Below are positions 16,477-55,500 of a DNA stretch of 64,000 nucleotides, one piece after another. The stretch lies in the IMG/VR virus record IMGVR_UViG_3300028837_001424, positions 48,592 to 112,591 of that record, one strand, 5' to 3'. The stretch is from a virus. The notes beneath the pieces were generated by a model. That model was not told where the DNA came from and ran no database searches. It saw nothing but the letters and a program-made list of their open reading frames with translations. The translations under genes were made by a program, and so were the position numbers. Position 1 is the stretch's first letter; every line of letters begins with the position of its first letter.

Positions 16477-17531
16477 TGACTTCATACAAAATAGATCTCT
16501 TAGCAACTCATGGAAGTCCATTGGGTGTGACACCGCCAGACATTTATGGACACGGTGTTGGGGGTGCCGAATTAGCCATGATGACTCTAATGCAAACATT
16601 TGCCGAGAGGGGCCATCAGGTGCGCGTTTTCAATGACCCAAAGAAACCTGGGGAATATGATGGTGTGCAATATCTATTCCGTAATCAATTTAAGCCAAAA
16701 GATAAAAGGGATGTTCTTATTCCATTTAGACAACCCAACGCATTAGTTAAGGCTTCCCGTGCCGCAAAGGGAAAATTTTGGTGGTCCACTGATCAATACA
16801 CAATTGGAGATTACGCGAAGTTTTCAAAGGTAGTTGATTTTTGCGTAACGATTAGCCCACATCATACTGAGTACCATAAAAACCGTTATGGTATACCGGA
16901 TGAAAAAATAGGCCATATCGACTTAGGAGTTCGCCTTGCAGACTACGACATTAAAGTAGATAAAGTTCCAGGCAGAATGATATTTTGTAGCGTACCGGCC
17001 AGAGGTCTTATGATCCTTCACTCGGCATGGCCACTTATACGGCGAAAAGCGCCGAAGGCGACTCTGGTTATAACAAGCGATTATGCTCTTTGGGGAGCAG
17101 GCGGCGGAGGGACTGCTAAATGGCGGATTCATTGGGTTGGGATGGAGGGCGTAAATTATGTCGGAAATGTTCCTCGTCGCGAGCTTATCAAATACCAACT
17201 AGAGGCCGAGGTTTTACCATATACTTGTACATATGACGAGCTATTTTGTCTCTCAGTCGCGGAGTGTCAAGTTGCCGGCGCAATGCCTGTTACTACAGAT
17301 GCGTCGGCACTTAAAACCACAAATCAATTCGGAATAAAGGTTTCTGGAGATCCTACAACGCCTCAGTTTGTAGAGGAGTTTTCTGATCGAGTAGCCGCGC
17401 TCGTTACTACAGAGAGACAATTTCTAGAAGCCAGACGCGCAAGCATGATTGCGGCTGCCAAGTCTCGATTTGATTGGCATGTAATTGCCGAAAAGTGGGA
17501 AAAACTGTTTGAGGATGGGAGGATTAAGTGA
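16476..17531 (+). CDS. Glycosyltransferase family 4 (GT-B)
   Basis: GVGGAE, ELFCLSVAECQVAG, RFDWHVIAEKW. Confidence 0.8.
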   Translation: MTSYKIDLLATHGSPLGVTPPDIYGHGVGGAELAMMTLMQTFAERGHQVRVFNDPKKPGEYDGVQYLFRNQFKPKDKRDVLIPFRQPNALVKASRAAKGKFWWSTDQYTIGDYAKFSKVVDFCVTISPHHTEYHKNRYGIPDEKIGHIDLGVRLADYDIKVDKVPGRMIFCSVPARGLMILHSAWPLIRRKAPKATLVITSDYALWGAGGGGTAKWRIHWVGMEGVNYVGNVPRRELIKYQLEAEVLPYTCTYDELFCLSVAECQVAGAMPVTTDASALKTTNQFGIKVSGDPTTPQFVEEFSDRVAALVTTERQFLEARRASMIAAAKSRFDWHVIAEKWEKLFEDGRIK

Positions 17532-18814
17532 TTTTATTTATTAGCGACTTCGATTTTAGGGGTTCGGGATATCTGCACATAGCAACAAGCTTGTGCAACG
17601 AGTTGGCGACTAGACATGGTAGAAAAGTTACTGCGTTGGGCATCGGCTACGACCGATCACAACACAATTGGCCCTTTTCGATTATTCCAGTTCGTCAGCG
17701 CGAATGGGGAAGACATATTCCAGCCATGGTCCATAACTTTATCCAGATGGGGAAATCTGGCCAATGGGATGAAGTAGAGGCGATTGTTGTTGCCTTAGAT
17801 ATTCCTATGCACGCAAATATGATGAAGATCAAAAGGGAAAACACGCCCTATATAGGCATCTTTCCAATTGAGAGCGGCCCTTTATGCAATACATGGGACT
17901 TTGCTATTGGTCACATGAGCGAACGATTAGTGATTAGCGAGTTCGGAAAGCATATGATTGACGAGTCTGGCACCAATACCTCCGTTTATATACCTATAGG
18001 AATCGATTCAACATCTTGGCGTATGCCATCGGATGTAGAAAGGAAGGCAATTAGGAAAGGGATGGGTTATGATGAAGATCAGTTTGTGGTTCTGACGGTT
18101 GCCGATAATCAAGAGCGCAAAAACTTGAGCATAGCGGCAGATGTTATAGAGCGCCTCAAAAAACATTTAAACGTGAGGTGGTCGTTGGTGACTCGAATCA
18201 ACTGTCCAGTAGGCTGGAAGCTCGACGATCTCATGCATCAATTCGACATAATTGATCAAGTAGATAAATATGATAAGGGACTGGCGTTTGATCGGCTATG
18301 GATGCTATATGCTTCAGCAGACGCATTCCTGTTGACGAGCAAGGCCGAGGGGCTTTGTTTACCAATCCTAGAAGCAATGGCAACTGGGTTGCCAGTTGTG
18401 GCAACCTCTTGTACCGCAATTCCCGAACACATTTGGGAAGATCCTGATTGGAGTCGCTGTAGTGATGGTATCTGGCACAAAGGAAAGCCACGAGGCCGAA
18501 GAGGCTATGGTTTGAACGTGGAATACACAACTATTGATCCTTGGGGTAACTCCGTTAGAAGCTTTCCAGATCCCAAGCACGCCGTAAAATTGCTAAGGAA
18601 GATCGCCAAGATGAAGCCGTCTCAAAAGCAGGATTTCATTCAACCAGGTAGGGACTATGCCGTTGGTCGAACTTGGCAACGAGCAGGAAATGTACTGGAA
18701 GAGACGCTCAAACGGGTGATCAAAAAGGCGCAACCAAAAGATGAGCCTGGAACTGTGATACCATCATCACAGCCAAGGGTGATACCCGAAATAACAGAGG
18801 AGAATTCGGTATGA
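17528..18814 (+). CDS. Glycosyltransferase family 4 (GT-B)
   Basis: NQERKN, LYASADAFLLTSKAEGLCLPILEAMATGLPVV. Confidence 0.85.
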   Translation: MILFISDFDFRGSGYLHIATSLCNELATRHGRKVTALGIGYDRSQHNWPFSIIPVRQREWGRHIPAMVHNFIQMGKSGQWDEVEAIVVALDIPMHANMMKIKRENTPYIGIFPIESGPLCNTWDFAIGHMSERLVISEFGKHMIDESGTNTSVYIPIGIDSTSWRMPSDVERKAIRKGMGYDEDQFVVLTVADNQERKNLSIAADVIERLKKHLNVRWSLVTRINCPVGWKLDDLMHQFDIIDQVDKYDKGLAFDRLWMLYASADAFLLTSKAEGLCLPILEAMATGLPVVATSCTAIPEHIWEDPDWSRCSDGIWHKGKPRGRRGYGLNVEYTTIDPWGNSVRSFPDPKHAVKLLRKIAKMKPSQKQDFIQPGRDYAVGRTWQRAGNVLEETLKRVIKKAQPKDEPGTVIPSSQPRVIPEITEENSV

Positions 18815-19710
18815 GCAAGCGCACAAGGGCAAGAAAGCCAAAACAGGGAAGAGCAAGAAAGAAACAAGGACCAGCGCCGAAAACATTGGTTGATATCTGT
18901 ATGCTGGTCTTTGGTGAGTGGGGGTTACTCTCAAAAGCTATCAGGGCGATTCCGGCTGCAGCCGAGGGGCTGAATGCCAGCTATCGAGTCATAGTCGTCG
19001 ATAATGGCACACCTGATTGGGAGACTGAGGAAAAGGAAATTGTAACGGCCAAGGAACAATCAGCACCAATTAAGGAACTGCTTAGGCCACAGGACATCTT
19101 TTTTAGGCTCGATGAAAACAAGGGCTTCCCCGGTGGTTACAACGTCGCGGTCGGCAAGGGGCGCTCGCCGCTTATTCTCATCTTGACTTCAGACGTTTTC
19201 CTGTTTCCTGGCGCGATTACAAAACTTGTTAGCGTTCTGGACGATCCTGAAGTTGGTATCGCAAGCCCGATGTTGCTCTATCCAGCGGACGAATCTCCCC
19301 ACGGGCCTCCTGGTAGCGTGCAGCATGCCGGCATTGGATTCGATATTCGAGGCGATCCCTATCATATTTTCATGGGTTGGCAGCCAGATCATGAGAAGGT
19401 AAATCAGCGTAGAGAGTTACAAGCGGTTACGGGAGCATGTATTCTAACTCGGCGTGCTTTATGGCAAAGAATAGGCGGCTTCTCTGAGCTTTATAATCAG
19501 GGAACATTTGAGGATATGGAGCTTGCATTTGCCATCCGCCAAATGGGCTACAAAATAATTTTCGAGCCAAGCGCGCGAGGTGAACACTATGTTGGAGGTT
19601 CCATAAAACATGGTGCTATGAGGCCGGGTTTTAATCTCGCATTAAATTCAACAATTTTCCGTGGCCGTTGGGCACCATCTCTGAAATGGGATACTTATCG
19701 ATTTTATTGA
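18811..19710 (+). CDS. Glycosyltransferase family 2
   Basis: VVDNG, NKGFPGGYN, VQHAG, AVTGAC, IGGFSELYNQGTFEDMEL. Confidence 0.85.
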   Translation: MSKRTRARKPKQGRARKKQGPAPKTLVDICMLVFGEWGLLSKAIRAIPAAAEGLNASYRVIVVDNGTPDWETEEKEIVTAKEQSAPIKELLRPQDIFFRLDENKGFPGGYNVAVGKGRSPLILILTSDVFLFPGAITKLVSVLDDPEVGIASPMLLYPADESPHGPPGSVQHAGIGFDIRGDPYHIFMGWQPDHEKVNQRRELQAVTGACILTRRALWQRIGGFSELYNQGTFEDMELAFAIRQMGYKIIFEPSARGEHYVGGSIKHGAMRPGFNLALNSTIFRGRWAPSLKWDTYRFY

Positions 19711-19794
19711 CCCTGCCGTGCCAAGCCCAACCTAACATCGCCAGACCTCGCATCGCCAAGCCGTACTCCGCCGCGAACCGCCTAGCCATGCCTC
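19710..19794 (-). ncRNA. Pentamer guide unit A1: 17 x (NN + GGY-type triplet)
   Basis: Minus: GA ggc AT ggc TA ggc GG ttc GC ggc GG agt AC ggc TT ggc GA tgc GA ggt CT ggc GA tgt TA ggt TG ggc TT ggc AC ggc AG ggt. Confidence 0.8.
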
Positions 19795-19807
19795 GTTTAT
19801 AATTCAT

Positions 19808-19872
19808 TCCTAGCCTCGCCACACCGCACCAAACACTGCGCCACCTAGCCGGACACCGCCCCACCTTGCCCT
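19808..19872 (-). ncRNA. Pentamer guide unit A2: 13 x (NN + GGY-type triplet)
   Basis: Minus: AG ggc AA ggt GG ggc GG tgt CC ggc TA ggt GG cgc AG tgt TT ggt GC ggt GT ggc GA ggc TA gga. Confidence 0.8.
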
Positions 19873-19906
19873 AACTGGGGAGAGTTCTCACATACTCTCC
19901 CCAATT
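19873..19906 (-). other. RNA hairpin immediately 5' of array A
   Basis: Minus AATTGGGGAGAGT-atgtgaga-ACTCTCCCCAGTT, 13-bp stem with one U-G wobble that pairs only on the minus strand. Confidence 0.75.
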
Positions 19907-19910
19907 CGAA

Positions 19911-20507
19911 TCAAAGTATCGAAACTTCGAATCGTCCATATGGCCCGCCCTTTGCAGGACGCCAATCGCCAAGACCTACAGCGTTGCCAGCCAGTTCGAG
20001 CCAGTGGATGAGTCTGTCTTTATCCACAAACTCTTCGTTGTACTGTAGCTCGCCTTCAATACTCCAATCTTCTGGAATAATTGGGCGAGTGCGCATGACG
20101 GTAGCCTGCCCGACACGAACGCCAATGCGGAAGCGGAAGCGTTCATCTTTCCACAGTTCCTTGGGATCTTTAGGACCGTCGTATTGAAGGACATAGTGGT
20201 GGTCACAAAATATACCAACACCTGCTGCCTTTCCTTCCTTCTCCATACGAGCGGCGCTACCCCTGCCAGCCAAGGCCGCCTTTAGTAATCGACCTGGAAT
20301 GACAGGCACTCCGTCATTGATGTATAGCGCACCCATAAACTCAAGGCGCGCCATTTCCTCGAAATCCTTCTCAGTCTTCTTGCGCTGAGAACTCACCTTC
20401 TTGAGCTTTTTTGCCCAAGTATTCAATGGATCTGCTAGCTGTCCATTGTGGAGGATCAGGGGGCTGATCCCCGTCAAACGAAATTTCAGAGTCTTCAGGA
20501 CGTTCAT
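19911..20507 (-). CDS. RAMP/Cas7-like protein 1 (putative guide-RNA-binding, Vipr-like), 198 aa
   Basis: RBS GGAG; N-terminal LKFRLTGISPLILH, central IPGRLLKAAL, RTRP..W, C-terminal Gly-rich loop GLGDWRPAKGGPYGRFEV; flanked by pentamer arrays. Confidence 0.75.
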   Translation of the reverse strand: MNVLKTLKFRLTGISPLILHNGQLADPLNTWAKKLKKVSSQRKKTEKDFEEMARLEFMGALYINDGVPVIPGRLLKAALAGRGSAARMEKEGKAAGVGIFCDHHYVLQYDGPKDPKELWKDERFRFRIGVRVGQATVMRTRPIIPEDWSIEGELQYNEEFVDKDRLIHWLELAGNAVGLGDWRPAKGGPYGRFEVSIL

Positions 20508-20805
20508 CGAACTTCTCCAATATCTTAACCGGCAAGCCCGCTTCCACATTGTCCTCTATTATCGTTTCGGCTCGACGTGAGTATCGAAGCCCTCTGATAT
20601 ATGAGGTGAGAAAGTCGTGGCATCGACGGCAGACGGTTATGAGATCCTCACCGATCTCTTCTCCGTATCTTTCGTATGTCTTATGATGCACCTCCAATTC
20701 TTCTACACAAGGAACTCCTGTTAATTCGGCAATGCCGAATATTTTTGAAAGTTGACATTCGTAGTTATCTCTTTCTAGGATTGCTTTTCTTACTAGGTTA
20801 TCCAT
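20371..20805 (-). CDS. HNH endonuclease overlapping the 5' end of the RAMP gene
   Basis: RBS GGAG; RKAILERDNYECQ...C...LEVHHKTY...EDLITVCRRCH. Confidence 0.8.
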   Translation of the reverse strand: MDNLVRKAILERDNYECQLSKIFGIAELTGVPCVEELEVHHKTYERYGEEIGEDLITVCRRCHDFLTSYIRGLRYSRRAETIIEDNVEAGLPVKILEKFDERPEDSEISFDGDQPPDPPQWTASRSIEYLGKKAQEGEFSAQED

Positions 20806-20826
20806 AATGGACTCCGAATAAAGTAA

Positions 20827-20921
20827 TCCTTGCCTCGCCCTGTCGTGCCGGACCTTGCCAAACCGTACCAGACCGCGCCCAAACATACACTGCCAGATCC
20901 AGCCACGCCTGGCCGCGCCTC
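20827..20921 (-). ncRNA. Pentamer guide unit B1: 19 units
   Basis: Plus: tcc TT gcc TC gcc CT gtc GT gcc GG acc TT gcc AA acc GT acc AG acc GC gcc CA aac AT aca CT gcc AG atc CA gcc AC gcc TG gcc GC gcc TC. Confidence 0.8.
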
Positions 20922-20934
20922 GAATATAATTCCT

Positions 20935-21009
20935 TCCCTGCCATGCCCCGCCGTATCCCACCGCGCCAGATCGTGCCTAGCCGGACTTCGCCACGCCAAA
21001 CCACGCCTT
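20935..21009 (-). ncRNA. Pentamer guide unit B2: 15 units
   Basis: Minus NN series: AA GT TT GT GA CC TA AC CT GC GG AC GG AT AG. Confidence 0.8.
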
Positions 21010-21023
21010 GAACATAATTGCTG

Positions 21024-21098
21024 TCCTTGCCGCGCCCCACCAAACCTCTCCATGCAGCACCAAGCCTGGTCGCGCCAAACCTTAACTTACCGTGCCTC
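21024..21098 (-). ncRNA. Pentamer guide unit B3: 15 units
   Basis: Minus NN series: GA AC AA AA TT GC CA TT GC AT GA TT GG GC AA. Confidence 0.8.
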
Positions 21099-21108
21099 GA
21101 AACCAAAA

Positions 21109-21172
21109 TCCCGCCACCCATTATTCGAGGTTGCCCTACCATGAACAAGCCAAGCTGTAATGGGAAGCGGGA
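21109..21172 (-). other. Structured leader stem-loop 5' of array B
   Basis: Minus TCCCGC-tt-CCCATTA ... TAATGGG-tg-GCGGGA with inner TTGTTC/GGGCAA helix. Confidence 0.65.
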
Positions 21173-21227
21173 GTCTGATCTCGATAAAAACAAAAGGCTT
21201 GGTAGATGTCCATGGCAGGTTAGTAGA

Positions 21228-21256
21228 AGTGTACCATAGCGGGCACAGTATGTCAA
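21228..21256 (-). promoter_or_regulatory. Sigma70-type promoter for the array B-HNH-RAMP1-array A operon
   Basis: TTGACA-17 nt-TACACT. Confidence 0.75.
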
Positions 21257-21311
21257 GACCAATGTATTAATCGTTTAAAACAACCAAATTCCATGATATA
21301 ATTATCTTTGC

Positions 21312-21643
21312 ACTTTACCAAACCAATCGCTTGGTGGCTCGAAGAATACCGTTCTACGGGTTAAAAAAGGCACACACGACAGGTGGCGGTGTGGTTCCAG
21401 GCGATGGGAAGCATAAGGGTCGTGGAGATCGGGCGAATGCGCCGCCTTACCGATCGAGCGCGACATCGTTGGTAGCTCAAAACTACATATCCAGTAGACG
21501 ACGATGTGCGGGCAAGATTCCCGCCAGTGACGTTGATGCTAGCTAGGCCAGTTAGCGGAGTCCTGTGGCCCGAATAATGCGACTGATTGCCGAGAGGTTG
21601 GGAGGATTGGCATCCTCCCCTGAGCGATTGTGTTTGGTGAAGT
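21312..21643 (+). ncRNA. Putative ~330-nt structured non-coding RNA of unknown class
   Basis: Ends pair (ACTTTACCAAACCAATCGCTT / GAGCGATTGTGTTTGGTGAAGT), several internal hairpins, extended -10 TGATATAAT at 21294-21302. Confidence 0.6.
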
Positions 21644-21868
21644 CATCAGAAAGGAAATTGGTAAATTTCATGGTAAAATAGATTTGCGAGCGCGCCTCTT
21701 CATTGGGCTATATTTCCCCTAATGATGAGAACTACTCCTGAGTAGCGCTTAGCTCAGGAGGCTAAGCTGGTAACAGCGGACGCGGTAGCCGGTGCCGCTA
21801 TACACAGAGACCGGCAATCACTTTGTAACAAAGGAGGCCAACATGACGAACCTTTAGTGAGGTGAATC

Positions 21869-22072
21869 ATGTCCAAAATTCAGAAAGGCGGTAAGAAAAA
21901 CCGCAAACATGGCCGTGCAGCGCGCAAGCCCAAAACTGCACGGTATCGTATTTCCAATCGTCGAGCAAAAAATAAAACCAAAAGAGTTCTGCGTAGCAGC
22001 GGCAAAAAGGCTGCAAAACAATACGCGCGGGAACAAAACACAACTGGCTATCTACTCAAATTGCTAAGTTGA
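21869..22072 (+). CDS. Small, very basic (K/R-rich) protein
   Basis: RBS GAGGTG; MSKIQKGGKKNRKHGRAARKPK. Confidence 0.6.
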   Translation: MSKIQKGGKKNRKHGRAARKPKTARYRISNRRAKNKTKRVLRSSGKKAAKQYAREQNTTGYLLKLLS

Positions 22073-22139
22073 ACACTGATATGTAACAACTTATTGCACG
22101 ATAACATATTTTATGTTATTGCGAATTTTAATGTTAATG

Positions 22140-22173
22140 AAAAAGCCCCTAAGCTGGAAGCCAGGGACTTTTT
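22140..22173. terminator. Bidirectional intrinsic terminator
   Basis: AAAAAGCCCCTAAGC-tggaa-GCCAGGGACTTTT between convergent units. Confidence 0.6.
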
Positions 22174-22226
22174 CGTATCGCGCCATTGTGCCACTCCGGC
22201 ACGGTTACATTATATCACAACTGGGC

Positions 22227-22664
22227 TTACTCAGCGACGATTGGCTCAGGGAGCATTTCTCCCATAATGTCGGTTTCTATTTCGGCCAATCTATAAGTAT
22301 CCGTATCAGTAAGATGCTCAAAACCGACTCGGTAATACGTCCGCACGTTTTGATTAAAGCTAACGTAGTCAATCCAGCCGCGAATAACGTAATAATCAAG
22401 AGCGTTAGGCTCATTCTTGTATTCCTTCATGTCACATTCGGACCACTCTTGAAATACTGCTCCCGTCTTATCCCATAGAATATCTTCGATGGTCTTTTGA
22501 GAGCGGCTGCATAGCTGACCCTTAATTGACGGGCCTTGATCACTGGTAGTTGCTTTACCATTTAGTAAATAATGTGCGGAAGTGGCAACGGCATATGCCA
22601 GCAGAATGAGAGTAAAAACGGCAACATATCTTAGACATCCTTTACCGGTCGTATTTTTCTTCAT
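22227..22664 (-). CDS. Hypothetical membrane-anchored protein with its own promoter (moron-like)
   Basis: N-terminal TM segment YVAVFTLILLAYAVA; RBS AAGGA. Confidence 0.6.
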   Translation of the reverse strand: MKKNTTGKGCLRYVAVFTLILLAYAVATSAHYLLNGKATTSDQGPSIKGQLCSRSQKTIEDILWDKTGAVFQEWSECDMKEYKNEPNALDYYVIRGWIDYVSFNQNVRTYYRVGFEHLTDTDTYRLAEIETDIMGEMLPEPIVAE

Positions 22665-22687
22665 GGTATTTATCCTTTACTGTGATT

Positions 22688-22732
22688 ATGCTACCCGATA
22701 CGGTACAGTATGTCAAGTTACCTTGGTACTAT
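22688..22732 (-). promoter_or_regulatory. Promoter with conserved upstream box (copy 1)
   Basis: ATAGTACCAAGGTAAC-TTGACA-17-TAGCAT. Confidence 0.65.
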
Positions 22733-22741
22733 CAATAAATA

Positions 22742-22769
22742 AAGAGGCGGGTATATATACCTGCCTCTT
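22742..22769 (-). terminator. Intrinsic terminator ending the RAMP2 operon
   Basis: Minus AAGAGGCAGGTAT/ATACCCGCCTCTT followed by TATTTATT. Confidence 0.55.
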
Positions 22770-22881
22770 GTGCTGTCTGGCAACCAGACGATCACCCACC
22801 ACTGATTGTCAACTTATAAGTTGTCAAATGATGATGGAATGACAACAAATATGTTATCAACAACTAAAGCTCAATGCGATT

Positions 22882-23076
22882 TTAGATCTCATTGATAAAT
22901 TGTCCAAGTCGTTCAACTTTTTCTTGAACAACACTAAAGTTTTTTGCGACACGAGCAACATCTCCAAAAATCAAGCCCCTATTTGCTTTATCAAGAGCTT
23001 TATTAATGTCTTGATACAAGCTCTTGGCAGTCTCGATGGGTTTGTAATTGGCACAGTTCTCACAAGTTTTGTTCAT
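22882..23076 (-). CDS. Small hypothetical protein (CxxC) downstream of array C
   Basis: RBS GGAGGT; MNKTCENCANY. Confidence 0.55.
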   Translation of the reverse strand: MNKTCENCANYKPIETAKSLYQDINKALDKANRGLIFGDVARVAKNFSVVQEKVERLGQFINEI

Positions 23077-23099
23077 CTTAGTTACCTCCGATGTAAAAA

Positions 23100-23234
23100 G
23101 CTTTGCTATGCTTTGCTCTGCTTTGCTGCGCTCTGCTGCGCTGCGCTTTGCTAAGCTTTGCTGGGCTCGGCTACGCTGCGCTTGGCTGCGCTCCGCTTGG
23201 CTAGGCTCGGCTGCGCTCTGCTGCGCTGCGCTAC
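23100..23234 (-). ncRNA. Pentamer array C: 27 x (NN + AGC)
   Basis: Plus strand GCT-NN 27 times with invariant GCT; begins 5 nt after the RAMP2 stop codon; followed by a T tract on minus. Confidence 0.75.
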
Positions 23235-23239
23235 GACCA

Positions 23240-23878
23240 CTATTCCATTGTTACAGGGTTAGTATCCTTCTCAAGAGTTTGCACAGTCCCGATTTCTTTA
23301 ACTTTCTTCCATTCAACTACTTCAAATGAACCAAAGGTTGGTCTATAGGCACATAGCCCTACGAATATACCGCCACGATTAAACCAATCCTCGGCCTTGG
23401 AAATGCTGAAATACTCATTTTCGTAAATGCTTATATTGAATTTTAATGACCAGGGCAAATCCAAAACGGGACGACTCACATTGACCCTAACTTTTGGGTT
23501 TGGCCTTGCCATTCTTGTATCTATGTAAAATGGAGACTTATTCAAATCTTCGGCGACCTCCAGTTTTACATTGCTTTCTTCGTGTTCTTTTCCATTTTGG
23601 AAAGGAATATATGCGGGTTGCACAGAGATACAACCACGGATCACTGGAGACAAAGTTTTCCACTCTTTGCTATTTACAAACATCCGTAGGCAGGAATGGC
23701 TATCTTTACTCGCCAGAAAGCCTTCGATGCTTGAGCTTGGCAAGCAGACGGTTTTGCCGTCGCGGGGGTCGAGGTAAATTTTTTGCTCGACGGGCGTTTC
23801 GTCCTGCGAGACCCATTTGTCGAACATGATCGGCGTCAGACCGTTTAAGACTACTTGTACTTTCACCATGTTTAGCAT
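23240..23878 (-). CDS. RAMP/Cas7-like protein 2 (Vipr-like), 212 aa
   Basis: VQVVLNGLTPIMFD, LPSSSIEGFL, SRPVLDLPWSLKF, GGIFVGLCAYRPTFGSFEV: same motif order as RAMP1. Confidence 0.7.
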   Translation of the reverse strand: MLNMVKVQVVLNGLTPIMFDKWVSQDETPVEQKIYLDPRDGKTVCLPSSSIEGFLASKDSHSCLRMFVNSKEWKTLSPVIRGCISVQPAYIPFQNGKEHEESNVKLEVAEDLNKSPFYIDTRMARPNPKVRVNVSRPVLDLPWSLKFNISIYENEYFSISKAEDWFNRGGIFVGLCAYRPTFGSFEVVEWKKVKEIGTVQTLEKDTNPVTME

Positions 23879-24236
23879 TGTTCTTGCTCCTTTCGCTTAT
23901 AAAGCGGCGCGACTGGTCAACCAATTCTCGGCGCGCATCACTTATTCTTTCTATTAGAGGTTGCTCTTTTCCTTCCAACCAGTTTATTACGAGCTTTAGA
24001 ATTTCATCATCAAGTTTAAATATCTCCCGATCATCAAAGCAATAAGAAGCCAGTAGGCACTTAAGTTCATCTTCGACTTTCAGGGGTTCATCAACTAGGC
24101 TGGCGTGGCATATTGTTAATTTGCTGTTGGCGGCTAAAAAAGCACGATAGCGCCTATTGAAATCGTCGGCTTTTCCTATTTTGAATAGATTATCAAATCC
24201 GAGGTCAAATAGGTAAACGTAGCCGCTAGACATCAT
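23706..24236 (-). CDS. GIY-YIG family (T5orf172/Mug113-like) nuclease overlapping the 5' end of RAMP2
   Basis: GYVYL....LFKIGK..D..RR...VEDEL...REIF; RBS AAGGAG. Confidence 0.75.
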   Translation of the reverse strand: MMSSGYVYLFDLGFDNLFKIGKADDFNRRYRAFLAANSKLTICHASLVDEPLKVEDELKCLLASYCFDDREIFKLDDEILKLVINWLEGKEQPLIERISDARRELVDQSRRFISERSKNNAKHGESTSSLKRSDADHVRQMGLAGRNARRAKNLPRPPRRQNRLLAKLKHRRLSGE

Positions 24237-52502: not shown

Positions 52503-55500
52503 TAAGCAATTCTCTTTCGGCGATCAATTCAGCAGTACGAGATCCGATGGTGTATGACCAGCCATTCTTTGTCATAACCCTATAATTACGACCCTGAGCC
52601 ATCATCTTAATATCTCGCTCCTCCAAGTCACGGCTCATAAATACTGGCTCTATTGTGCCAACAAGTGGCTTAGTATAACTTGAGTCTTTCATCGATATCC
52701 TCTAAGTTAATTGGTTTTATATTATTGATGTTTCGCAAAAGATCCGAAACTACGGCTCGATAGACCTGCATCAGTGATGGAGTTATCCGGTCATCTGTGC
52801 CGTCAAAACGGAAATCCTCTTGAAGTTGAGCTATCAGCTTTGCGATATTACGGATCTCGTTTTTATTCATTGTCATAGTTCCCATTGTGGAAGCGCTGGA
52901 TTAGGTATAAGTTTCCCCGGCTTTTTCGGCTGCTCGTTTTTTTCTTTATGGAATTCCCCATTTTTGGTTTCAAGATCAGCACCATAAAGCGCCTGCCGAA
53001 TATCGCAAAGTATGACAGCATTCCAGAGCAATAGAACGATGATGATTACGAGTAAAATATTACGCATCATTATGGATTCCCCGCATTCCGAGCATCGCTG
53101 ATTGTCTCACTATTGTCTGAAGACTCTTTGTGACTAACGTCTTTGTTCCTTTTGGCACATTCGGCAAGGGCTTCTTTTTCTGTCGGGAATAATCTATCAA
53201 CAGACCATAACCGACCACCACCGATTCCAGTTTCAATGCACATATATTTTTCTTCTCTTTTTTCCTCTTGAAATTCAAAACTGCGTATCCTTACTTCGAT
53301 CTGCCCAATTGTAAGCACATGACCAACCACCCATATTTTACCGACAATTTTCCATTCTCCACCATCGCCTTTACAAATTGGACAACGAACGATTTTCCCG
53401 TCTCGGCCAGTAATTTCGGATCTATTAAGCATACTTGTTGGTTTGTTGCTACCTTCGCAGAACGTACAGCGTATCCATATTCTTGATCTCTCCTCTTTGA
53501 TGCTAATTACTTCCTGTCCTAAGTTATATCTGGTTCGAATATCCACTTCAGTCTCCTTAGAATGGAATATCTTGTTTGTCTAATTCCTTGGCACAATGCG
53601 GGCAAACCTCACAACCTAATCCGGGTATATCAACACCATATCTCACGGCAGGGGAACAGGTGCATCTATTTTCCTCATGCTCATCAATCTCTCGCTGATC
53701 TCTAACCGCGTCCATTATCCTGTCTCTGATCCTCCGACGGAAGACAAACAGCTTGTCAATTCCTCGATAACCGGGGAGCAGCTCGTCACAGCGCACTAAA
53801 ACGATGTTCATGGCCCGATCGAAGTCGAGTCCTGTTTCTCGTGCCAGAAATTCGGCAAGCTGTTGTTTTTCAAGGGATAATTGCTCTAATGTCTCGGTGT
53901 ATTCTTTCATTCTTAGTTCCCGGTTTATCTTAGCGAATGAGTTACGAGGCATTGAATTGCTCCTTAATTTTGATTTGCCATCGAACAAATTCACTCTCTG
54001 GGCCCGGATGTATAGTTGCTTTATTTGTTAGGACTAACCGATATGCAATCCATTGAAGCCTTTTTATTGACCCATCGGTAATCTTATGATAAGAATTTTG
54101 TTTATGGTTCCTATAGAAAAAGGCACTTGCACCATCTTTGTAGGCAACAAGCGAAATATCATTGATCATTTCATCTGCTCCTCTGCTTTGCTGATTATCC
54201 CAACACGGTGTCGGGATAAAACCTCACGGGCATTATTAATTTCATTATCGTAGAACGATTTACCATAAAGTTTTATTTCATGTGCGTGTCGTTCCAAAAA
54301 TCTTGCCAAAACATCTAGCAAATCATCGTTGATGGCTTCGAGTTTCTCTATCTTCCTATATGGGGCCATTCGAGCATCAAGTTTGGCTTGGTATTTGGCA
54401 GAGGTTTTATATTGCCGTTCCTCTACCTTGTCAGGATCGTGTTGGCTACACCATCGATGACCGCGTTTTTCTACTTTCCATTTACGCGTGCACTGATGCC
54501 AATGCCATCCGCCCTGACCAGACACGGAAGCCGCACAGTAATCTGGATCAAATTCTGCTTCATATCTATCACGCTTTTTATAAACAAAAAGCCCTCCAGG
54601 CAATATTTGCTCACTCATTGCGATTGCTCCTCTGCTTTGCGGATGGCTTCACTTGCCTGCTTTTTTAGCGCAAGCAATACTAAGGCATTTCCGACTGAAA
54701 CCTCATCGTCATATTCGCCTAATTTATCTATCAGCCCAAAGGCGGCTTTTGCTACCTCCAGCAGGTCATCATGGCAGTTGCAAGCGGTGACGATGAGGCG
54801 GGCGTTGGCTTTATCCTCGTTATCATTGGATAACCCAACCGTATAACAGATTTCTGTTCTCCACTGTGCCTGCTTGTGAGTACCTGATTTATTGGCTTGA
54901 ATGCTCCTGCAACCTCCTACATTTGGAGGCATTGGTTGTACTCTCCAAGGTAAAGCCGTATGCTCGGTCATCTTGTCTGCTCCTTTATTTCCTTCCATCG
55001 AAAGCCAGTCCATTTCCAACGGCGAAGGATCTTAAAGGTTGGTTCGGTGTAGTTTGGTACTTCATGCAATTCGTTTGTACCAGGAGTGCTTGATAGCCAG
55101 AGGCTTTGGCAGACTCTCGTAATTTTTGCCATAGCTATTACACTCCCGCGTTTGCGATTATTCTTGCCATAATCTAAATCTGGAGACCAGTCTGGTTCTT
55201 GGGAAAATTCAACCCAGTATGCTCTCCCATTATCTATCCATACGGGAGCATACTCAGTTACAATTTGTCCGACAGTAATACCTGATTTGATGGCTGTCAT
55301 CTTGTCTGCTCCTTACCATCACAATAGTCTTGCCAGCCTTTGCGCAACTTCTTAATGTAATCACGTTGTCGCTCTCTCAGACCACGGGCGTAATCGCTAA
55401 GGTAAGTCTTGCCACAGTGCTTGCATACGCTCCAAGTGGGATCGCGACTTTGCTGAGAGCGCGCTAGATCTGGCTCGTGCTTACAATCTATTTGGTCGGT

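What the first reader, a model, noticed from the sequence alone, without database searches (positions are those of the whole stretch)
19808..19952. Guide A2 spells the C-terminal motif of the RAMP gene family itself
Seen: A2 dinucleotides AA GG GG CC TA GG AG TT GC GT align with codons AAg GGc GGg CCa TAt GGa CGa TTc GAa GTt (K G G P Y G R F E V; 19952-19923), 18 of 20 nt identical, about 50 nt from the array. One mismatch is the synonymous Arg switch (AGx vs CGx) and the other is Ala vs Glu. Inference: the guide targets a homologous RAMP gene of a rival phage (system-versus-system conflict) and the two mismatches protect self. Alternatively it gives weak autoregulation. This is the strongest in-window validation of the gapped code.
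Basis: partly seen in the sequence, partly recalled or inferred. Interest (0 to 1): 0.92.

Follow-up and report, generated by a model that had tools for sequence, protein, structure and literature searches.

The report
VIPR guide aimed at rivals' vipr
The five-base repeat tract is a guide RNA of a VIPR system (a CRISPR-like phage weapon first described in 2026), and its variable letters spell the end of the system's own protein gene as it reads in a rival phage, a kind of system-against-system targeting that is already in print for other phages.

Summary
Tract A2 (19872-19808, minus strand) has 13 NN-GGY pentamers. Units 2-11 match codon positions 1-2 of K-G-G-P-Y-G-R-F-E-V (19952-19923) at 18 of 20 bases, 51 nt from the array.

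This is a VIPR system (bioRxiv 10.64898/2026.04.26.720920, .720927, 2026.10.15.759431):
- The 'RAMP' is a Vipr protein (PDB 36pp, E 2e-29).
- The 'gapped code' is the published 1-nt skip rule.

Guides that hit the end of rivals' vipr genes, with lower self-match, are already in print for the SUSP1 family. This scan has noted VIPR on other DNA in at least 351 genomes.

What is new here is local:
- A2 matches the closest relative's vipr better than its own: L012 20/24 (0.83) against self 18/24 (0.75).
- The difference is one recoded codon, Glu to Ser.
- No perfect target was found.
- An HNH gene sits beside vipr in 64 of 86 related loci.
- Neighbouring guide A1 fits the usual version of the flanking glycosyltransferase gene, not the phage's own.
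- The relative's guide hits this phage at 28/32.

Verdict: a new member of a known kind. A homing-like reading stays open.

The parts
19808..19872 (-). vrRNA A2 guide tract: 13 pentamers NN-GGY. There are 12 canonical units plus a terminal TA-GGA unit that probably belongs to the 3' handle.
   Evidence: caller conformity 0.92. The terminal A(G/A)-GGA unit followed by an AU-rich separator recurs in related loci.
19918..19955 (-). Footprint of the full A2 guide on the phage's own vipr gene. The core is 19923-19952, with 18/20 matches. The skipped bases fall on codon position 3.
19911..20507 (-). vipr gene (Vipr RAMP protein). The likely start is Met15 of ORF 19911..20549, by alignment with homologues.
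   Evidence: phrog_4652 E 3e-50. PDB 36pp_D 'SUSP1 Vipr protein' E 2e-29 for the single sequence and 3e-44 for the profile. AlphaFold model pLDDT 89, with Csm3/Cas7 as the best structural matches. Alignment.
19878..19903 (-). 8-bp GC-rich hairpin between the vipr stop codon and A2. It is conserved in the closest relative, with a compensatory G-C/C-G swap.
   Evidence: Sequences (window GGGGAGAG...CTCTCCCC against L012 GGGGACAGG...CCTGTCCCC).
19795..19807 (-). AU-rich separator (ATGAATTATAAAC on the minus strand) between A2 and A1. It is the likely processing site.
   Evidence: The same GGA-N-AATTAT motif lies between B3/B2 and B2/B1, and in L012 and L022. Processing is inferred.
19710..19794 (-). 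vrRNA A1 guide tract (17 units). It ends exactly at the stop codon of the converging glycosyltransferase gene.
   Evidence: Its best genome-wide match lies in the adjacent GT2 gene.
19486..19535 (+). Site in the phage's own GT2 gene (18811..19710) that A1 matches at 22/34. The A1-coded peptide fits 13-14 of 17 residues in GT2 homologues but only 9 of 17 in the phage's own protein.
20371..20805 (-). HNH nuclease gene directly upstream of vipr and overlapping it. It is the conserved partner (Vap) of this VIPR clade.
   Evidence: Pfam HNH E 2.7e-4 and several PHROG HNH families. A homologue sits directly upstream of vipr in 64 of 86 related loci. The HNH + vipr block is 77% identical in DNA to L012, while the arrays and flanks are not alignable.
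20822..21098 (-). Upstream vrRNA arrays B3, B2 and B1 (15, 15 and 19 units).
21228..21256 (-). Sigma-70-like promoter TTGACA-17-TACACT upstream of the operon.
   Evidence: Read from the sequence. L012 has TTGACA-17-TACAAT upstream of its HNH-vipr pair. Activity is not tested.
53603..53649 (-). Site in ORF 53557..53994 that is matched 28/32 (0.875), wobble-aligned, by the third vrRNA of the closest relative's VIPR cassette (L012).
23100..23878 (-). Second, divergent system: Vipr-like paralogue (23240..23878) followed by 27 NN-AGC pentamers (23234..23100), with a T5orf172 nuclease-like gene upstream (23706..24236).
   Evidence: Paper 1 mentions YNNNG/NNNNG repeat variants.

Best explanation
A2 is one of five guide RNAs (vrRNAs) of a VIPR system carried by an uncultured 112.6-kb phage.

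By analogy with the SUSP1 system, Vipr protomers bind the GGY triplets of the RNA and line up along it as a helical filament. The filament presents the NN dinucleotides, which pair with double-stranded DNA two bases at a time while every third target base is flipped out. Because the skipped base falls on the codon wobble position, the guide reads the amino-acid-determining bases of a gene.

A2 reads the last 12-13 codons of vipr genes of this phage's own subclade. Its intended target is most likely the vipr gene of a related rival phage. Binding there would block transcription at the end of vipr and into the guide array that follows it. In this clade the always-linked HNH nuclease may cut the DNA instead.

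The phage's own copy matches less well, partly through a recoded codon (Glu to Ser). It falls below the 80% level that the VIPR papers use to call a target.

Shown here: the sequence matches and their statistics, homology to a solved Vipr, and the HNH linkage. Taken from the papers: the pairing rule and silencing (type II only). Inferred: expression and processing of A2, binding, tolerance of mismatches, and cutting by HNH.
For: - Identity of the system: Vipr homology, a RAMP fold, and five NN-GGY arrays on the gene's strand. The same arrays flank homologues in the cultured phages LESphi2, wV8 and LittleE.
- Code: only a target period of 3 gives the hit. The published rule is identical.
- Rival rather than self: A2 scores 20/24 on L012 against 18/24 on self, and L012 is the only hit at or above 0.8 for any guide of 10 or more units among 154 guides. 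None of 2000 shuffles reaches 20.
- A2's best hits in L014, L015 and L022 also lie at their vipr 3' ends.
- All five nearest protein relatives fit the guide better than self does.
- No guide of this phage matches its own genome at or above 0.8, as the papers report for other systems.
- Precedent in print: vrRNAs that target the end of rivals' vipr, with lower self scores.
- Evidence of live conflict: the L012 guide hits this phage at 28/32, while L012's own copy of that gene has a one-codon deletion at the site.
Against: - No target with a near-perfect match was found.
- The best rival reaches only 0.77 if all 13 units are counted.
- Two internal mismatches (units 8 and 10) remain against every known allele.
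- The full-length self score is not above the shuffled-guide null.
- The difference between self (0.75) and rival (0.83) is one codon, and the tolerance of VIPR for mismatches is not reported in the papers read.
- Expression of A2 is not shown.
- All experimental knowledge comes from type II systems with a different tail and partner protein.
Confidence: 0.7

Rival explanations
1. RNA-guided homing or marker exclusion. The two guides of the downstream array point outward at the array's own two flanks as they read in rivals: A2 at the vipr 3' end, A1 at the 3' part of the glycosyltransferase gene. The linked HNH nuclease cuts there, and repair from this phage's DNA copies the array together with its recoded, immune flanks into the rival. 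This is a more specific version of the best explanation (a different outcome), not its opposite.
For: - A2 and A1 each have their best genome-wide match in the gene directly beside the array.
- The A1 code fits 106 of 120 GT2 homologues better than the phage's own GT2.
- L012's last guide targets the rival allele of the gene directly beside its own array.
- 13 of 135 guides in related loci have a local match inside their own locus at p <= 0.01, where 1.4 are expected. Eight of the 13 lie within 130 nt of the array.
- In real-against-shuffled counts over all loci, 20 hits against 5 reach score 14 or more.
- HNH is linked in 64 of 86 loci.
- The HNH-vipr block sits in different genomic contexts in the window and in L012.
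Against: - No cleavage is shown.
- No cassette-free 'empty site' genome was aligned here.
- Two of the 13 self-locus hits lie within 10 nt of the array and may be masking artefacts.
- Adjacent partial matches could also arise if guides are simply gained from neighbouring DNA by an unknown route.
- Silencing alone would also explain targeting of rivals.
Confidence: 0.28
2. Autoregulation. A2 binds the imperfect site at the end of its own vipr gene. It thereby dampens read-through from vipr into the downstream array, which includes A2 itself, giving negative feedback.
For: - The site lies 51 nt upstream of the array in the same operon, with ten consecutive units at 18/20.
- Silencing works on either strand in type II systems.
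Against: - Relatives' alleles match better than self.
- The self gene carries a change, Glu to Ser, that lowers the match at a position where Glu is the commonest residue in the family (47 of the 109 homologues scored).
- The self score is below the 0.8 level used in print, and the papers report no self-targets.
- The same partial-match pattern occurs on converging flank genes, where feedback makes little sense.
Confidence: 0.1
3. Decayed relic. A2 once matched an allele perfectly (an ancestral or extinct rival) and has drifted. The present match has no function.
For: - No perfect target was found.
- Three of 13 units match no known allele at all, and two more match at only one of their two bases.
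- Some scaffold triplets are degenerate (GGTGT, GGCGC, AGTGT).
Against: - Scaffold conformity is still 0.92.
- The match to the nearest relative passes 0.8 on the 12 canonical units.
- Sampling of this clade is thin: there is one DNA relative above 60% identity.
Confidence: 0.1
4. Chance. A G-rich guide happens to resemble a glycine-rich C-terminal motif.
For: - The full-length self score is ordinary for shuffled guides.
- Six of the 10 matched units are G- or C-rich.
- Forcing part of the pattern in GTDB genomes gives random sites of up to 20/26.
Against: - The local score is reached by 6 of 1000 shuffles genome-wide, and the hit lies in frame in the one adjacent 600-nt gene.
- The match lengthens by one unit in the relative (0 of 2000 shuffles).
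- The same pattern recurs for A1 and in other loci.
Confidence: 0.03

Closest known systems
VIPR systems (Vipr protein + vrRNA + vap). The experimental exemplar is the type II system of Escherichia phage SUSP1: bioRxiv 10.64898/2026.04.26.720920 and 10.64898/2026.04.26.720927.
   Same: - A single small RAMP protein homologous over its full length to SUSP1 Vipr (E 2e-29).
- Arrays of GGY/NN pentamers, 12-19 units each, on both sides of the gene.
- Targets read two bases on, one base off, with the skip on wobble positions.
- Carried by a phage.
- No self-target at or above 80%.
   Different: - No vap1 (phrog_5926) anywhere in the genome. An HNH nuclease gene overlaps the vipr start instead.
- No long pseudoknot tail. 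Units end in A(G/A)-GGA plus a roughly 12-nt AU-rich separator.
- The Vipr has a 4-residue insert (AKGG) in its C-terminal glycine-rich loop. The guide's match covers K-G-G of this insert.
- Nothing has been tested experimentally in this clade.
[quoted passage not shown]
   Same: [quoted passage not shown]
- The self-match is lower than the match to other phages.
- Read as system-against-system conflict.
   Different: - In print these guides are mostly orphan guides on phages that have lost vipr. Here the guide sits in a complete system, 51 nt from the phage's own vipr, so self-avoidance has to act on the vipr gene itself.
- The clade and the partner nuclease differ.
- The best known rival match is only 0.77-0.83.
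Nuclease-associated VIPR types (types III-V of paper 1; an HNH Vap is shown in its fig. S21).
   Same: Vipr is linked to a predicted HNH nuclease, so target destruction rather than silencing is plausible.
   Different: - The paper describes types III and V as enriched in bacterial defence islands and aimed at viruses. This one is on a phage and aimed at related phages.
- The exact type number could not be assigned from the text available.
Free-standing homing endonucleases of phages (intronless homing and marker exclusion, for example the T4 seg and mob genes). This comparison rests on established knowledge and was not tested here.
   Same: - A nuclease gene inserted between conserved genes.
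- The predicted target lies in the flanking gene of rivals.
- The carrier's own flank is recoded and so presumably immune.
   Different: - Specificity would come from exchangeable RNA guides, not from the protein.
- HNH is not sporadic here but fixed next to vipr.
- No cleavage or gene conversion is shown.
Type III CRISPR-Cas backbone protein Csm3 / Cas7.
   Same: It is the best structural match of the model (Foldseek E 1e-5, TM 0.4-0.5): RRM core, thumb and glycine-rich loop.
   Different: - 9-14% sequence identity.
- No CRISPR repeat-spacer array beside the gene.
- A 5-nt rather than a 6-nt RNA period.
- A gapped 2+1 code rather than a 5+1 code.

Membership tests
VIPR system | Vipr protein: a small single-RRM RAMP with a glycine-rich loop and thumb, homologous to characterised Vipr proteins. 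| tested here: met
   PDB 36pp_D 'SUSP1 Vipr protein' E 2.1e-29 over residues 19-211; profile E 3.2e-44. phrog_4652 E 3.3e-50. AlphaFold model pLDDT 89 with Csm3/Cas7 as top hits.
VIPR system | vrRNA genes: tandem YNNGG (GGY/NN) pentamers, about 9-16 units, in the intergenic DNA flanking vipr and on its strand. | tested here: met
   Five tracts of 12-19 units with scaffold conformity 0.90-0.93, all on the minus strand like vipr. NN is hypervariable between the window and L012, while HNH-vipr is 77% identical.
VIPR system | An invariant structured 3' tail after each repeat tract (a pseudoknot in the SUSP1 clade). | tested here: not met
   No long tail. There is only a conserved A(G/A)-GGA unit plus an AU-rich separator of about 12 nt, shared with L012, L016 and L022. 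The paper allows other array architectures, so this argues against type II membership, not against VIPR membership.
VIPR system | An accessory vap gene next to vipr. | tested here: met
   vap1 (phrog_5926) is absent from the whole genome. An HNH gene lies directly upstream of vipr here and in 64 of 86 related loci. HNH Vaps are described in paper 1.
VIPR system | Natural targets obey the 1-nt skip rule, are wobble-aligned and reach at least 80% NN match. No self-target reaches 80%. | tested here: inconclusive
   A2 against L012 vipr is 20/24 = 0.83 on canonical units but 20/26 = 0.77 on all units. The relative's guide against this phage is 28/32 = 0.875. Period 3 is the only period that gives a signal. 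The best self scores are 0.57-0.69.
VIPR system | vrRNAs are expressed, processed and bound by Vipr, and the complex binds or silences DNA. | not testable with these tools
   The phage is uncultured. No RNA data were examined.
vipr-targeting vrRNA (Lopez et al. 2026) | The guide's best match lies in a rival's vipr coding sequence, is wobble-aligned, and scores above the self-match. | tested here: met
   Only one close DNA relative was available.
Free-standing homing endonuclease cassette | Sporadic presence or absence between conserved genes, with cleavage of the cassette-free allele near the insertion point. | not tested
   The context differs between the window and L012 and the guides point at flank alleles. 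No empty site was aligned and no cleavage can be tested.
CRISPR-Cas (type III Cas7/Csm3) | A repeat-spacer CRISPR array and further cas genes next to the RAMP gene. | tested here: not met
   No CRISPR-type repeats appear in the tandem-repeat scan of the window. The neighbours are HNH and a glycosyltransferase. Similarity is in fold only, at 9-14% identity.

The most novel reading that the evidence does not exclude
HNH-linked VIPR cassettes, or even their guide arrays alone, may be RNA-programmed homing or marker-exclusion elements. The two guides of the downstream array (A2, A1) are aimed outward at the two genes that bracket the array, in the versions carried by rival phages. The phage's own copies are recoded. 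A cut there by the linked HNH nuclease would be repaired from this phage, copying the array and its immune flanks into the rival. The three VIPR papers read here do not contain the word 'homing'. This scan has noted the same pattern on other genomes.
Probability: 0.28. Interest if true: 0.8.

Novelty: new member of a known kind. Interest (0 to 1): 0.45.

Why it matters
The finding shows that the published VIPR code can be read off raw sequence. It also shows that system-against-system targeting, so far described for E. coli SUSP1-type phages, operates in an unrelated, uncultured marine-sediment phage with a nuclease-linked form of the system.

Two local details are useful to specialists:
1. 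A complete system carries a guide against vipr right beside its own vipr gene. Self is told from rival by one recoded codon, which makes a natural test case for how many mismatches VIPR tolerates.
2. Two natural relatives target each other's alleles. A2 matches L012's vipr at 20/24, and L012's guide matches a gene of this phage at 28/32. L012's own copy of that gene is protected by a one-codon deletion.

If the flank-directed pattern reflects homing, VIPR would join TnpB/IscB-like systems as an RNA-guided selfish-element device. That is not shown here.

Tried and rejected
Early ideas, dropped once the protein was identified:
- NN as mere spacers of a TRAP-like RNA-binding ring.
- Two-tier G-quadruplexes. 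The second array is NN-AGC, so this does not fit.
- A translated pentapeptide-like repeat.
- DNA iterons.

Searches that gave nothing:
- Rfam at gathering threshold and the tRNA scan: no hits in the window.
- blastn of 17000-24000 against phage records: no match.
- The search for related loci with the single protein in IMG/VR: none. With the clade alignment, only distant relatives at or below 48% identity.

Search for a perfect or better A2 target:
- Exact pattern of units 2-10 in IMG/VR: 0 hits.
- Degenerate KGGPYGRF[EA]V pattern in IMG/VR: 0 hits.
- Units 6-13 and units 1-8 in IMG/VR: 3 and 5 hits. All lie in short ORFs or noncoding DNA, none is a vipr gene, and there are no arrays nearby.
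- KGGPYG[RS]F pattern in GTDB genomes: 22 hits, all random sites, none preceded by the family's DWRP motif and most with a stop codon beside the match.
- 120 protein homologues: none ends in ...RFAV.

Other limits:
DNA of the close protein relatives P0004, P0006 and P0007 could therefore not be fetched, and only L012 (= P0003) gave DNA.
- No mismatch-tolerance data were found in the three papers.
- The exact VIPR type number could not be assigned from the text.

Full report
**1. The observation**

On the minus strand, 19872..19808 is a run of 13 pentamers of the form NN-GGY. The NN string is AG AA GG GG CC TA GG AG TT GC GT GA TA. The adjacent minus-strand ORF 19911..20549 ends ...P-A-K-G-G-P-Y-G-R-F-E-V-S-I-L.

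Units 2-11 equal codon positions 1-2 of K..V (19952..19923) at 18 of 20 bases. The array begins 51 nt further on.

- This is the only 18/20 hit in the window on either strand, and the next best is 16. None of 300 shuffles of the unit order reaches 18. Target periods of 2, 4 or 6 give only 14-15.
- Over the whole 112.6-kb genome, a local ungapped score of 14 is reached by 6 of 1000 shuffles.
- One caveat matters. Scored over the full guide, as in the literature, the self match is 18/26 (0.69), which 45% of shuffled guides reach somewhere in the genome. The self match is remarkable for its place (in frame, at the end of the neighbouring gene) and for its local run, not for its full-length score.

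**2. What it is**

The protein has no Pfam family but belongs to phrog_4652 (E 3e-50). It has hundreds of relatives in metagenomes and in the cultured phages LESphi2, wV8 (Felix O1-like) and LittleE. In all three cultured phages I found the same NN-GGY tracts beside the gene, on its strand.

A profile of the family hits one solved structure, PDB 36pp 'SUSP1 Vipr protein' (E 3e-44; 2e-29 for the single sequence over residues 19-211). The AlphaFold model (pLDDT 89) finds Csm3/Cas7 as its nearest folds.

That led to three 2026 preprints on VIPR (Viral Interference Programmable Repeat) systems. They report the following:
- Vipr protomers polymerise on the GGY triplets of a vrRNA.
[quoted passage not shown] - Targets are called at 80% NN match or more, and no self-target passes that level.

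The October preprint reports guides that hit the start or the end of rivals' vipr genes, with lower self scores.

**3. This locus in particular**

The phage has no vap1 (phrog_5926) anywhere in its genome. Instead, an HNH nuclease gene (20371..20805) overlaps the start of vipr. A homologue sits in that position in 64 of 86 related loci.

The HNH + vipr block is 77% identical in DNA to the closest relative, L012 (metagenome contig Ga0209986_10067066). Homology stops at the hairpin after vipr and at the HNH start. The arrays and the flanks are unrelated. HNH is therefore the fixed partner of this clade, not a stray homing gene.

The units lack the SUSP1-type pseudoknot tail. They end in A(G/A)-GGA plus an AU-rich separator of about 12 nt, as in L012, L016 and L022. 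For that reason the terminal TA-GGA unit of A2 may be handle rather than guide.

**4. Self or rival?**

L012's Vipr (82% identical) ends ...S-K-G-G-P-Y-G-R-F-E-V-E-I-L. A2 matches it at 20 positions against 18 for self, because unit 12 (GA) fits Glu (GAG) where self has Ser (TCG).

| Units counted | L012 | Self |
|---|---|---|
| 12 canonical units | 20/24 (0.83) | 18/24 (0.75) |
| All 13 units | 20/26 (0.77) | 18/26 (0.69) |

- In an all-against-all scan of 154 guides against 87 loci, this was the only hit at or above 0.8 for a guide of ten or more units. None of 2000 shuffles reaches it.
- At the protein level, all five nearest relatives fit the A2-coded peptide at 10-11 of 13 residues. Self fits at 9.
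- Glu is the commonest residue of the family at the position where self has Ser.
- The AG/CGA mismatch is nevertheless instructive. With wobble bases skipped, switches within six-fold degenerate codon families (Arg CGN/AGR, Ser TCN/AGY) are among the few silent ways to escape such a guide. This is inference.
- The predicted perfect target was not found in IMG/VR, in GTDB genomes, or among 120 protein homologues.

**5. Context that goes beyond the finding**

- A1, the next guide, has its best genome-wide match in the converging glycosyltransferase gene, whose stop codon abuts the array (22/34). Its coded peptide fits GT2 homologues at 13-14 of 17 residues (E-[IM]-Y-G-A-G-T-F-E-D-..-Y-C-F) but the phage's own protein at only 9. 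106 of 120 homologues fit better than self.
- L012's last guide matches ORF 53557..53994 of this phage at 28/32, wobble-aligned. L012 carries the homologue of that ORF directly after its own array, with a one-codon deletion and substitutions at the site, so its self score is 16/32.
- Among 135 guides of related loci, 13 have a local match inside their own locus at p <= 0.01, where 1.4 are expected. Eight of these lie within 130 nt of the array.

Together these results show that guides of this clade tend to spell rival versions of the genes next to the cassette. That is the logic of free-standing homing endonucleases. I rate this homing or exclusion reading at about 0.28. It is not in the three papers, but this scan has noted it on other genomes.

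**6. Verdict**

The kind of system, and this kind of target, are already known. The scan has recorded VIPR in at least 351 genomes. This is a new member in a nuclease-linked clade of an uncultured phage. Expression, binding, mismatch tolerance and cutting remain untested.

Noticed in passing
window 53557-53994 (-), site 53603-53649: A 145-aa ORF of unknown function (no Pfam or PHROG hit), with a cysteine-rich C-terminus. The third guide of the closest relative's VIPR cassette (L012) hits it at 28/32, wobble-aligned. L012's own copy of this gene lies directly after its array and has a one-codon deletion at the site.
   Followed up: yes
own genome 23921-23955 (locus L122:1422-1456), outside the window: A 12-unit guide of a distant VIPR locus (L010, IMG/VR UViG_3300031566_000017) matches this phage's large terminase gene at 21/24, wobble-aligned. 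The site covers a Walker-A-like stretch (A-P-P-Q-H-G-K).
   Followed up: partly
window 19486-19535 (+) and 19710-19794 (-): Guide A1 spells the usual version of a conserved glycosyltransferase motif (Y-G-A-G-T-F-E-D-..-Y-C-F). The phage's own gene reads Y-N-Q-G-T-F-E-D-M-E-L-A-F. 106 of 120 homologues fit the guide better than self does.
   Followed up: yes
window 23100-24236 (-): A second, divergent system: a Vipr-like paralogue (28% identical over 75 residues, with no PDB hit of its own), 27 perfect NN-AGC pentamers starting 5 nt after its stop codon, and a T5orf172 (GIY-YIG-like) gene upstream in the place that HNH holds in the first system. None of its guide windows matched the genome above the null.
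   Followed up: partly
L003 (Mycobacterium phage LittleE) 3750-3800, 3900-3945, 5215-5260, 5345-5395: In LittleE every NN-GGC tract is followed by a hairpin and a tRNA-like T-arm (GGTTCGAGTCC). This suggests that the guides are released by tRNA-processing enzymes. One tract lies inside the annotated gp35 CDS.
   Followed up: no
L002 (Escherichia phage wV8) 3768-3825 and 5161-5218: The direct repeats annotated as 'DR_4' in the 2009 wV8 record are the conserved tails that follow the NN-GGT guide tracts around gp95 (Vipr) and gp94 (vap1, phrog_5926).
   Followed up: partly
L043:1987-2026 and L043:1464-1486: An 8-unit guide in a related metagenome locus matches a site 500 nt upstream in its own locus at 16/16. 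This is a possible true self-target or a short chance hit.
   Followed up: no
window 21300-21850: A roughly 550-nt stretch upstream of the VIPR promoter has no long ORF and contains GC-rich, possibly structured segments. It gave no Rfam hit at the gathering threshold.
   Followed up: no
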